A DNA stretch of 64,000 nucleotides, from IMG/VR virus record IMGVR_UViG_3300001533_002283, positions 32,001 through 96,000 of that record; one strand, given 5' to 3'. Source of the DNA: a virus. This document shows positions 15,080-15,705 of this stretch, in pieces. The notes below the pieces were generated by a model that searched no databases, was not told where the DNA came from, and saw nothing but the letters and a program-made list of their open reading frames with translations. A program made the position numbers and the translations under genes. Numbering within the stretch: the stretch's first letter is position 1; every line of letters begins with the position of its first letter.

Positions 15080-15306
15080 TGAGAAAGAACAAAAGTTATT
15101 GATATAGAACTAGTTCTATTTTGATTTTTTTCAAAGCCGTGGTGTTTCAAGTCGAAGCCTCAGAATTTATCCGCGCAGTCAATTCGGCGCGAGGGATTTC
15201 AACAGTCCCCAAATTGATTTAGTTATTTAACGGGCGTCTAAACCAAGAAAGATTACCCGGAAATTGTCTGAAAGAACGGTCAGGCGGGTGAACCCTCACC
15301 TGACTC
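15080..15306 (-). ncRNA. putative structured leader/ncRNA, unit 2 (hairpin + boxA-like)
   Basis: follows promoter 15312-15339; GTCAGGT-GA-GGG-TTCA-CCC-GCCTGAC hairpin, then CGTTCTTTCAGACA; further hairpins; no convincing ORF. Confidence 0.5.
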
Positions 15307-15311
15307 TCTAC

Positions 15312-15339
15312 ACTTTACACTTTTTCTTGCTTTCGTCAA
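15312..15339 (-). promoter_or_regulatory. strong sigma70-like promoter
   Basis: GAAAAACGC-TTGACG-16-TAAAGT. Confidence 0.7.
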
Positions 15340-15344
15340 GCGTT

Positions 15345-15651
15345 TTTCTTCAAAAAGAACAAAAATTTTTCGGAAAGTTGATTAAACTTCATGAGGCGAT
15401 CCGCCCAAGAATTACCCGAAGGAACCCCCTTCGTGATTCAGTAACTCACACTTATATTAACCAACTTTTATTCCGGGTGATTTTATAACGATTATTCGCC
15501 CGCCTTTCAGCAGCAATATTAGGAACCAACCAATATTCAAAAACGCGAGATTTAAGATTATCCCGAACTATACTCATCCCGCCCTATCGTTTAGAGGTTT
15601 GAATGAGAAGAATGTGAAAAGAACAAAGGTGAGGCTTTCCCCGACCTGATT
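15345..15651 (-). ncRNA. putative structured leader/ncRNA, unit 1 (hairpin + boxA-like)
   Basis: follows promoter 15657-15685; AGGT-C-GGGG-AAAG-CCTC-ACCT hairpin, then TGTTCTTTTCACA; hairpins AATATTGG..CTAATATT, CGAAGG..CCTTCG, GGGCG..CGCCT. Confidence 0.5.
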
Positions 15652-15656
15652 TAACC

Positions 15657-15685
15657 ACTATGCGGGATTACCCCGATGAAGTCAA
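15657..15685 (-). promoter_or_regulatory. sigma70-like promoter
   Basis: ATAAAACTTG-TTGACT-17-CATAGT. Confidence 0.6.
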
Positions 15686-15705
15686 CAAGTTTTATTCAAA
15701 AAATT

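What the first reader, a model, noticed from the sequence alone, without database searches (positions are those of the whole stretch)
15080..15690. Tandem promoter-hairpin-boxA-like RNA units in the only large non-coding gap: candidate rrn-mimic antitermination or Nus-decoy system
Seen (minus strand): two promoters ~345 bp apart (15657-15685, 15312-15339). Each is followed within a few nt by a GC hairpin starting (TC)AGGT (15627-15647; 15279-15304), then at once by a GTTCTTT element: TGTTCTTTTCACA (15613-15625) and CGTTCTTTCAGACA (15265-15278). Each unit also ends with a further copy (TGTTCTTTTTGAA ~15349-15361; TGTTCTTTCTCAC ~15079-15091), with several hairpins in between and no credible ORF. 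Established: bacterial rRNA leaders have tandem promoters followed by a boxB hairpin and boxA (GYTCTTT core) that recruit NusB-NusE/NusA/NusG/SuhB. Inference: the phage either loads the host rRNA antitermination complex, without an N-like protein, to read through the ~15 kb of downstream early genes, or makes abundant decoy RNAs that titrate NusB-NusE and shut down host rRNA synthesis. I know of no description of this arrangement in large lytic phages, but I cannot search.
Basis: partly seen in the sequence, partly recalled or inferred. Interest (0 to 1): 0.82.

Follow-up and report, generated by a model that had tools for sequence, protein, structure and literature searches.

The report
Twin promoter-hairpin-GUUCUUU leaders in phage
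The one gene-free stretch of this uncultured 172-kb phage window holds two sister early promoters whose untranslated transcripts each start with a small hairpin followed at once by GUUCUUU, the core of the bacterial boxA anti-termination signal. This layout is already known from phage T7 and from ribosomal RNA operons, and its function here could not be tested.

Summary
Window 14928-15705 (minus strand) is the only ORF-free stretch of 250 nt or more. It carries two paralogous promoters of the phage's own early class. Both have 31 nt from TTGAC to a 5'-terminal hairpin that starts UCAGGUnnGGG, then 2 nt, then GTTCTTT. Two more same-strand copies bring the total to four in 541 nt. None of 6000 composition-matched simulations reached four copies. 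However, some 7-mer reaches four copies in about 6% of simulations.

The box matches the 7-nt core of the boxA consensus GYTCTTTAANA but not its 3' half. The host is unknown. No relative carrying this region could be fetched, so conservation and identity to the host's boxA remain untested.

My best reading, at about 0.35, is that these are rrn/T7-style boxB-boxA-like modules that keep untranslated early RNA from premature termination. That RNA includes a tRNA-Arg-like element. The rivals are a protective 5' hairpin with a pyrimidine-rich leader, an attenuator or Rho-loading site, and DNA operator sites. Nothing supports the Nus-decoy idea.

The arrangement is not new for lytic phages. T7 has host promoter, hairpin and boxA, and this scan has repeatedly noted the same layout in phiEco32-like coliphages on other DNA. 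Interest is moderate to low.

The parts
15688..15705 (-). A/T-rich upstream (UP-like) tract of P1, AAAATTTTTTGAATAAAAC, directly after the stop codon of gene 15706-16029
   Evidence: Read. It aligns with the equivalent tract upstream of P2.
15657..15685 (-). Promoter P1, TTGACT-17 nt-CATAGT; start expected near 15651-15650
   Evidence: It is a member of the phage's early promoter class (A-rich upstream, TTGAYT, 16-17 nt, TAnnnT).
15627..15647 (-). Hairpin 1, AGGU-C-GGGG-AAAG-CCUC-ACCU, at about +4 of the P1 transcript
   Evidence: -8.6 kcal/mol, z -1.2.
15613..15626 (-). Box 1, UUGUUCUUUUCACA (GTTCTTT at 15624-15618), 2 nt after hairpin 1
15586..15626 (-). Pyrimidine-rich, G-poor tract (about 29 of 38 pyrimidines, one G) that begins with box 1
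   Evidence: Counted. Compare the rut/boxA overlap in the suhB leader (PMC5725501).
15452..15577 (-). 41-codon ATG ORF of uncertain reality inside unit 1
   Evidence: Only an identical copy exists in the 5.8-billion protein set. No PHROG match. It lacks the phage's usual ATAACAC start context.
15417..15433 (-). Terminator-like hairpin CGAAGG-GGGUU-CCUUCG, then GGUAAUUCUU, 19 nt after the small ORF's stop
   Evidence: The local fold is not better than shuffles.
15354..15360 (-). Box 3, GTTCTTT inside the A/T-rich tract upstream of P2 (AAAAATTTTTGTTCTTTTTGAAGAAAAAC)
   Evidence: It lies in a 7-nt insertion relative to the P1 upstream tract.
15312..15339 (-). Promoter P2, TTGACG-16 nt-TAAAGT; start expected near 15305
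15280..15303 (-). Hairpin 2, UCAGGUG-A-GG..CC-CGCCUGA, at about +3 of the P2 transcript
   Evidence: -16.8 kcal/mol, z -2.95, 0 of 200 shuffles as stable.
15265..15279 (-). Box 2, CCGUUCUUUCAGACA (GTTCTTT at 15277-15271), 2 nt after hairpin 2
15084..15090 (-). Box 4, GTTCTTT in AATAACTTTTGTTCTTTCTCAC. It shares 15 of 17 nt with the box 3 context.
   Evidence: family D1, spacing 270 and 264 nt.
15043..15075 (-). Hairpin with a perfect 10-bp stem (UCUUAAUUCG/CGAAUUAAGA), just before the tRNA-like element
   Evidence: -11.4 kcal/mol, z -2.5; I6.
14943..15036 (-). tRNA-Arg(UCU)-like element with a 7-bp acceptor stem and CCA end, downstream of both promoters
Evidence: Acceptor pairing GUUCGCC/GGCGAAU and the anticodon loop GUUCUAA were read directly. 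ARAGORN does not call it.
14574..14927 (-). First protein gene downstream (117 aa, no known family)
   Evidence: Homologs of 57-89% identity exist in metagenomes.

Best explanation
The gap is an untranslated early transcription unit driven by two paralogous host-type promoters.

Shown from sequence:
- Each transcript begins with a small hairpin, followed 2 nt later by the single-stranded box (U/C)GUUCUUU, which opens a pyrimidine-rich, G-poor tract.
- The hairpin-then-box order is the same as boxB then boxA in rrn leaders.

Inferred:
- The box is a boxA-type loading site for the host NusB-NusE(S10) pair.
- Binding there would convert RNA polymerase into a termination-resistant form.
- This would let 300-700 nt of ribosome-free RNA be completed instead of being cut short by Rho or weak intrinsic terminators. 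That RNA includes the structured middle parts, the tRNA-Arg-like element, and perhaps the genes from 14927 onward.
- No phage N-like protein is required in this model, as at rrn operons and in T7.
For: 1. The modules are in register. TTGAC-to-hairpin is 31 nt and hairpin-to-GTTCTTT is 2 nt in both units. The promoter spacers between them are unrelated in sequence. The hairpins keep pairing with partly different 3' arms.
2. GTTCTTT is the most enriched 7-mer of the gap: 4 of the 23 minus-strand copies in 172 kb. 0 of 6000 composition-matched simulations reach 4 copies.
3. GYTCTTT is exactly the core of the published boxA consensus GYTCTTTAANA (PMC5725501).
4. About 20 other early promoters of the same class lead within 0-20 nt into an ORF and have unstructured 5' ends (0 to -3.5 kcal/mol). 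P1 and P2 carry a stable 5' hairpin and run 260-720 nt without a long ORF. Untranslated RNA is where protection from Rho would be needed.
5. There are precedents for the layout. B. subtilis rrn operons start with a small hairpin immediately followed by a boxA-like sequence that binds NusB (PMC13753749). T7 has the A3 start, a hairpin, then CGCTCTTTAACAA at +63, and that boxA is functional (PMC3709561).
6. Both promoters have A/T-rich upstream tracts like stable-RNA promoters.
Against: - The 3' half of boxA (A-A-N-A in gamma-proteobacteria, G-A-A-A in Bacillus) is missing from all four copies.
- No GU-rich boxC-like element follows.
- The host is unknown, so identity to its rrn boxA is untested.
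- No relative with this region could be obtained, so there is no conservation or covariation evidence.
- A family-level relative of 171,916 bp has no such cluster.
- Other non-coding promoters of this genome lack the box.
- The two promoter-proximal copies share ancestry. One further copy sits in a promoter's upstream tract.
- The phage's early leaders are generally CU-rich, which raises the chance of such a word.
- Any 7-mer reaches four copies in 5.8% of simulations.
Confidence: 0.35

Rival explanations
1. The hairpin is a protective 5' cap and the tract is an ordinary leader, with no Nus factors involved. The 5'-terminal hairpins shield ribosome-free RNA from 5'-end-dependent RNases. The pyrimidine-rich tract is this phage's usual CU-rich early leader. 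Unit 1 may be the mRNA of a 41-aa peptide, with a hairpin after its stop. Unit 2 would be the precursor leader of the tRNA-like RNA. GUUCUUU would survive because the two leaders are duplicates, or because another RNA-binding factor reads it.
For: - Early leaders across the genome are CU-rich, G-poor and lack a Shine-Dalgarno sequence.
- Stable 5' hairpins occur only on the two promoters that have no adjacent ORF.
- The layout promoter, leader, 41-codon ORF, then a hairpin 19 nt after the stop is gene-like.
- Homology between the units extends past the box to TTCSGGRTAATCTT (D6).
Against: - The 41-aa ORF has no homolog and lacks the phage's ATAACAC start context.
- It does not explain why the conserved word is the boxA core, nor why two further copies lie outside the leaders.
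Confidence: 0.25
2. The module is a promoter-proximal stop signal. Hairpin 1 plus UUGUUCUUUU acts as an intrinsic terminator, for the upstream operon and for P1 itself. Alternatively the G-poor pyrimidine tract is a Rho-loading (rut) site. Either way the promoters would mostly make very short RNAs, or would be attenuated until some factor relieves the stop.
For: - Hairpin 1 is followed at once by 8 U in 10 nt.
- The tract 15626-15586 has a single G.
- In the E. coli suhB leader a boxA and a rut site overlap, and Nus factors there promote Rho termination (PMC5725501).
Against: - Hairpin 1 is weak (-8.6 kcal/mol, bulged) and the terminator scan did not call it.
- The much stronger hairpin 2 is followed by CCGUUCUUUC, a poor U-tract.
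- A terminator 35 nt from each of two promoters with upstream A/T tracts would waste them.
Confidence: 0.13
3. The boxes act in the DNA. TTTGTTCTTT (four direct copies) and/or YTCGGGRTAAT (four copies) are binding sites of a phage or host regulator that switches the two promoters off or on.
For: - One box lies at -22 to -10 relative to P2's -35 element. The others lie at about +30 of each promoter.
- A second motif, GGGTAAT/GGATAAT, is also concentrated here: 3 of 21 genomic GGGTAAT copies, one of them inside the P1 spacer.
Against: - All copies are on the transcribed strand, with irregular spacing (264, 83, 187 nt) and no dyad symmetry.
- No DNA-binding protein is recognisable among the neighbouring genes.
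Confidence: 0.1
4. One reading: abundant short RNAs carrying boxA soak up NusB-NusE and starve host rRNA synthesis.
For: Only the presence of several boxA-core copies behind promoters with upstream A/T tracts.
Against: - The boxes lack the 3' half that contributes to affinity.
- Four copies on at most two transcripts is little against a cell's rrn output.
- The units lead into a tRNA-like gene and early genes rather than ending cleanly.
- No discrete stable fold was found (z -0.65 and -1.0).
Confidence: 0.03
5. The boxes have no function of their own. A tandem duplication of a promoter and its leader, together with T-rich sequence, produced a word that happens to equal the boxA core.
For: - Some 7-mer reaches 4 copies in 5.8% of composition-matched simulations.
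- GTTCTTT is not over-represented in the window as a whole (25 found, 20.9 expected).
- A hairpin+GTTCTTTGA hit in other phages turned out to be part of a tmRNA.
Against: - The box and hairpin are kept in register while the promoter spacers between them have diverged to random-level identity.
- The named motif reaches 4 copies in 0 of 6000 simulations.
Confidence: 0.12

Closest known systems
Phage T7 early control region (host promoters A1-A3, hairpin, boxA)
   Same: It is a lytic phage that uses host RNA polymerase promoters followed by a hairpin and a boxA on the early transcript, with no N-like protein. In T7 the A3 start is at 750 and CGCTCTTTAACAA lies at +63, after a hairpin. Mutations in that boxA have a phenotype (PMC3709561).
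   Different: T7 has one full-consensus boxA, identical to its host's, shared by three promoters. Here each of two promoters has its own hairpin and box at about +28 to +35. Only the 7-nt core matches, the host is unknown, and the unit runs into a tRNA-like RNA rather than straight into a protein gene.
Bacterial rrn leaders (E. coli boxB-boxA-boxC; B. subtilis 5' hairpin plus boxA-like AUGAUCUUUGAAA)
   Same: Tandem promoters with A/T-rich upstream tracts, a hairpin first and then a single-stranded (G/A)YUCUUU box, at the head of a long untranslated stable-RNA transcript (PMC13753749; PMC5725501).
   Different: There is no UUU[A/G]A[A/C]A continuation, no boxC, and no rRNA. The promoters are 346 nt apart, and the boxes recur at the 3' side of each unit.
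phiEco32-like coliphage early leaders, as noted repeatedly by this scan on other DNA (e1-304149, e1-1920461 and others)
   Same: Several strong host-type promoters, each followed by a hairpin and a boxA, feeding a long non-coding early RNA (these notes were not checked here).
   Different: Those boxes equal the E. coli boxA in full, and the RNA is a conserved fold of about 800 nt found in about 100 phages. Here there is no significant overall fold, no Rfam match and no reachable relatives.
Lambda nutL/nutR
   Same: A boxA-like word plus a small hairpin on an early transcript. Box 1 ends in CACA. From my own memory, nutR boxA (CGCUCUUACACA) ends the same way; this was not checked with a tool.
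   Different: The order is reversed (boxA then boxB in lambda). Lambda needs the N protein. No N-like protein or GNRA-type pentaloop was identified here.

Membership tests
boxA (NusB-NusE binding site) antitermination element | Sequence match to the boxA consensus (gamma-proteobacterial GYTCTTTAANA; Bacillus UGAUCUUUGAAA) | tested here: inconclusive
   Positions 1-7 match in all four copies. Positions 8, 9 and 11 (A, A, A) match in 0 to 2 of 3: UCAC, CAGA, UUGA, CUCA. Consensus taken.
boxA (NusB-NusE binding site) antitermination element | Identity or near-identity to the boxA of the host's own rrn leader and spacer | not testable with these tools
   The host is unknown. The only clues are a TnpB 51% identical to one in a Limnohabitans MAG and a PstC-like fragment that is only 27% identical there. 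TGTTCTTTAACAA sites sampled in that bacterial family were not next to rRNA.
boxA (NusB-NusE binding site) antitermination element | Lies on the transcribed strand, shortly downstream of a promoter, in single-stranded RNA | tested here: met
   Boxes 1 and 2 lie at about +27 to +35 of P1 and P2 and are unpaired in the predicted folds. Boxes 3 and 4 are on the same strand but are not promoter-proximal.
boxA (NusB-NusE binding site) antitermination element | Conserved in position in related genomes | not testable with these tools
Distant relatives are not syntenic.
boxA (NusB-NusE binding site) antitermination element | Binds NusB-NusE and confers terminator read-through | not testable with these tools
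   This needs a binding assay and a reporter. The phage encodes no NusB of its own.
rrn-type leader (boxB hairpin, boxA, boxC) | Hairpin immediately upstream of boxA | tested here: met
   Both hairpins end 2 nt before the box.
rrn-type leader (boxB hairpin, boxA, boxC) | GU-rich boxC downstream of boxA | tested here: not met
   The sequence after both boxes is pyrimidine- or A-rich, with no UGUGUGGG-like element.
Any curated RNA family (Rfam 15) | Covariance-model match at or near the gathering score | tested here: not met
   There are no matches at gathering score in the whole window. In 14850-15760 only three chance-level hits appear (E 0.1-1, 15-19 bits, against cut-offs of 41-80 bits).

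The most novel reading that the evidence does not exclude
A large freshwater phage of a non-enterobacterial host runs a miniature stable-RNA operon. Each of two promoters has its own hairpin plus a truncated boxA, which recruits host Nus factors to make a set of non-coding RNAs, including a rewired tRNA-like molecule. The recurring 3' boxes would act as re-loading or processing signals. This would extend boxA use by lytic phages well beyond coliphages and define a shorter, 7-8-nt functional boxA.
Probability: 0.1. Interest if true: 0.6.

Novelty: new member of a known kind. Interest (0 to 1): 0.36.

Why it matters
If the boxes do load Nus factors, boxA-driven antitermination by lytic phages without an N protein would be widespread in environmental phages, not a quirk of T7-like and phiEco32-like coliphages. 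It would also give a natural minimal boxA to test. If they do not, the region is still a clean pair of early promoters driving unknown non-coding RNA next to an odd tRNA-like gene. That is useful for annotating this phage group but not surprising.

Tried and rejected
- **Rfam.** Nothing at gathering score in the whole window, and nothing meaningful with permissive thresholds on the gap.
- **tRNA/tmRNA search.** None at default settings. At 75% thresholds only implausible calls appear.
- **Whole-unit folds.** Not better than shuffles (z -0.65 and -1.0).
- **DNA similarity.** No match to GenBank phages. No match to about 160 loci that hold homologs of the upstream 107-aa gene.
- **Upstream gene as a handle.** That gene is widespread (117 homologs), but its neighbourhood is not conserved. 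There is no gap or box cluster next to it.
- **Downstream gene as a handle.** The 117-aa gene has homologs of 57-89% identity, but none is in viral contigs.
- **Unavailable routes.** The closest contig (P0002, 85% identity) was not returned.
- **Whole-module pattern.** Scanned over IMG/VR, it gave one hit, inside a coding region of an unrelated contig.
- **Family-level relatives.** These were found through the DnaE core (45% identity or less). Two records were read in full. They have no GTTCTTT cluster and neither flanking gene.
- **False lead.** A hairpin+GTTCTTTGA element in L089 and L150 looked like a second example but is the 5' part of phage tmRNA genes.
- **Host identification.**
  - TnpB is only 51% identical to a copy in a Limnohabitans MAG.
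  - The PstC-like fragment points loosely to Pseudomonadota and is 27% identical in that MAG.
  - boxA-like words sampled in that bacterial family were not beside rRNA.
- **Neighbouring proteins.** No Pfam or PHROG function for the adjacent genes. No phage NusB.
- **Small ORFs in the gap.** No family matches and no homologs.

Full report
**Setting**

The window is bases 32001-96000 of a 172,181-bp uncultured phage record. Almost all genes are on the minus strand. Start codons lack a Shine-Dalgarno sequence and are often preceded by ATAACAC. If minus-strand ORFs of 45 aa or more count as genes, the only ORF-free stretch of 250 nt or more in the window is 14928-15705, 778 nt. It lies between a 107-aa gene (15706-16029) and a 117-aa gene (14574-14927). 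Neither gene has a known family. Its 7-bp acceptor stem, GUUCUAA anticodon loop and CCA end can be read directly.

**The observation**

- P1 is TTGACT-17-CATAGT (15685-15657). P2 is TTGACG-16-TAAAGT (15339-15312).
- Both promoters belong to a class of about twenty early promoters in this genome. The class has an A-rich upstream tract, TTGAYT, 16-17 nt, then TAnnnT.
- An alignment of the two units shows they are paralogous. The upstream tract (TTTTTGAAnAAAAC), the -35 element, the 5' half of the hairpin (TCAGGTnnGGG) and GTTCTTT are shared. The promoter spacers are unrelated.
- In both units TTGAC-to-hairpin is 31 nt and hairpin-to-GTTCTTT is 2 nt.
- Hairpin 2 is clearly stable (-16.8 kcal/mol, z -2.95). 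Hairpin 1 is modest (-8.6 kcal/mol, z -1.2).
- Two further same-strand GTTCTTT copies lie at 15360-15354 and 15090-15084. They share a longer context, AAnAAYTTTTGTTCTTT. The first sits in a short insertion within P2's upstream A/T tract.

**Is it more than chance?**

- GTTCTTT is not over-represented in the window as a whole (25 found, 20.9 expected).
- However, 4 of the 23 minus-strand copies in the whole genome fall in these 541 nt.
- None of 6000 simulations with the gap's own first-order composition reached four copies.
- 2 of 300 window-scale simulations gave a same-strand cluster of four.
- If the word is not named in advance, some 7-mer reaches four copies in 5.8% of gap simulations.
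- So the cluster alone is only suggestive. The coincidence with a pre-defined motif, and the in-register position after two hairpins, carry the weight.

**What sets these two promoters apart**

The other promoters of the class have unstructured 5' ends (0 to -3.5 kcal/mol over the first 40 nt) and reach a long ORF within 0-20 nt. Many are effectively leaderless. P1 and P2 have a stable 5'-terminal hairpin and no long ORF for about 260-720 nt. The hairpin-box module therefore goes with untranslated RNA. The tract after box 1 (15626-15586) is about three-quarters pyrimidine with a single G. The interior of the units shows no fold better than shuffled sequence (z -0.65 and -1.0). It has no Rfam match and no tRNA or tmRNA call. 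A 41-codon ATG ORF (15577-15452), followed 19 nt later by a terminator-like hairpin, is the only gene-like feature. It has no homolog other than an identical copy, no PHROG match, and lacks the usual ATAACAC start context.

**Comparison with boxA**

The published gamma-proteobacterial consensus is GYTCTTTAANA (PMC5725501). B. subtilis rrn operons begin with a small hairpin immediately followed by AUGAUCUUUGAAA, which binds NusB (PMC13753749). All four copies here match positions 1-7 of the consensus. None has the A-A-N-A or G-A-A-A continuation, and box 2 (GUUCUUUCAGA) comes closest. No boxC-like element follows.

I checked T7 directly. The A3 start is at 750, followed by a hairpin, and CGCTCTTTAACAA lies at +63. 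Mutations in that boxA have a phenotype (PMC3709561). So the layout of host promoter, hairpin and boxA in a lytic phage without an N protein is already known. This scan's own notes also describe it repeatedly in phiEco32-like coliphages on other DNA (I did not check those notes).

**What could not be done**

Conservation is the obvious test, and I could not run it.
- The upstream gene is widespread, but its neighbourhood is not conserved.
- The downstream gene has homologs of 57-89% identity, but none is in the viral collection.
- A whole-module pattern scan of IMG/VR gave one chance hit inside a coding region.
- Family-level relatives (DnaE 45% identity or less) lack the flanking genes and the box cluster.
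- The host is unknown. A TnpB 51% identical to one in a Limnohabitans MAG and a PstC-like fragment are weak clues.
- A promising hairpin+GTTCTTTGA element in two other phage contigs turned out to be the 5' part of tmRNA genes. This shows how easily the word appears in other contexts.

**Verdict**

The anatomy is real and is best described as two sister promoter, 5'-hairpin, GUUCUUU leaders heading an untranslated early unit that ends in a tRNA-like gene.

I give the boxA/Nus antitermination reading about 0.35. It explains why the word equals the boxA core, why it sits 2 nt after a hairpin, and why it occurs only where no ribosome follows the polymerase. Against it stand the missing 3' half, the unknown host and the lack of any comparative evidence.

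The rivals remain live:
- a protective 5' hairpin with an ordinary CU-rich leader, about 0.25;
- an attenuator or rut site, about 0.13;
- DNA operator sites, about 0.1;
- no function, about 0.12;
- the decoy idea, about 0.03, which has nothing specific in its favour.

Because T7 and rrn leaders already show the same logic, this would be a new member of a known kind even if confirmed.

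Noticed in passing
window 15680-15667, 15567-15554, 15424-15411, 15262-15249 (minus strand); related copies near 15175 and 14817: A second motif, YTCGGGRTAAT(Y)CTT, recurs four times in the gap. Three of the genome's 21 minus-strand GGGTAAT copies are here. One lies inside the P1 spacer and one is in the terminator-like hairpin. It could be a protein-binding site or an RNA motif.
   Followed up: partly
G000 171,620-171,577 (outside the window; L259): A third hairpin-plus-box lies at the 3' end of a 68-aa gene near the record's right end: GAGTCAGC-TAAAAG-GCTGACCG, then 9 nt, then GTTCTTTT. It shares GAGTCAG...CTGACCG with unit 2. No promoter is evident upstream.
   Followed up: partly
G000 171,807-172,181 (L259:3807-4181, minus strand): The record ends in a truncated PstC-like phosphate-transporter permease fragment of 124 aa, open at the record end. 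It could be an acquired host gene piece or an assembly join.
   Followed up: partly
window 8047, 14103, 24650, 26970 and others (minus strand): Many early promoters have the form cTTGAYTTTTYC-N11-CTACTCT, with the ATG or GTG start 7 nt after the -10 element. The messages would be leaderless or nearly so. Genes throughout the genome lack a Shine-Dalgarno sequence and often have ATAACAC before the start.
   Followed up: partly
window 15495-15481 versus 14940-14926 (minus strand): AUAAUCGUUAUAAAA inside unit 1 is complementary in 13 of 15 positions to the start region UUUUAUAACACUUAU(G) of the next gene. It is AU-rich and may be chance, but it recalls the antisense-to-leader idea noted elsewhere in this genome (I4).
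   Followed up: no
L089:625-1070 and L150:80-1 (minus strand): Two unrelated freshwater phage contigs carry tmRNA genes, with a GGGGCUGA/GGGCUCGA 5' end and, in L089, a GGTTCGATTCCGCC T-arm at the 3' end. They lie downstream of a small lipoprotein-like gene.
   Followed up: partly
G001 (L243-L251), 70338-70725 and 127307-128436: A 171,916-bp family-level relative (31% G+C) encodes a tmRNA and tRNAs for AUA, Met, UUA and AGA. This is the same A/U-ending codon set as this phage's tRNA-Leu(UAA) and tRNA-Arg(UCU)-like genes. It hints that the hosts have a higher G+C than the phages.
   Followed up: no
G000 10,490-10,380 (minus strand; outside the window): Another early promoter is followed by non-coding sequence with a T-arm-like GCAGGGTCGAATCCCTAC. 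This may be a further unconventional tRNA-like gene that ARAGORN does not call.
   Followed up: no
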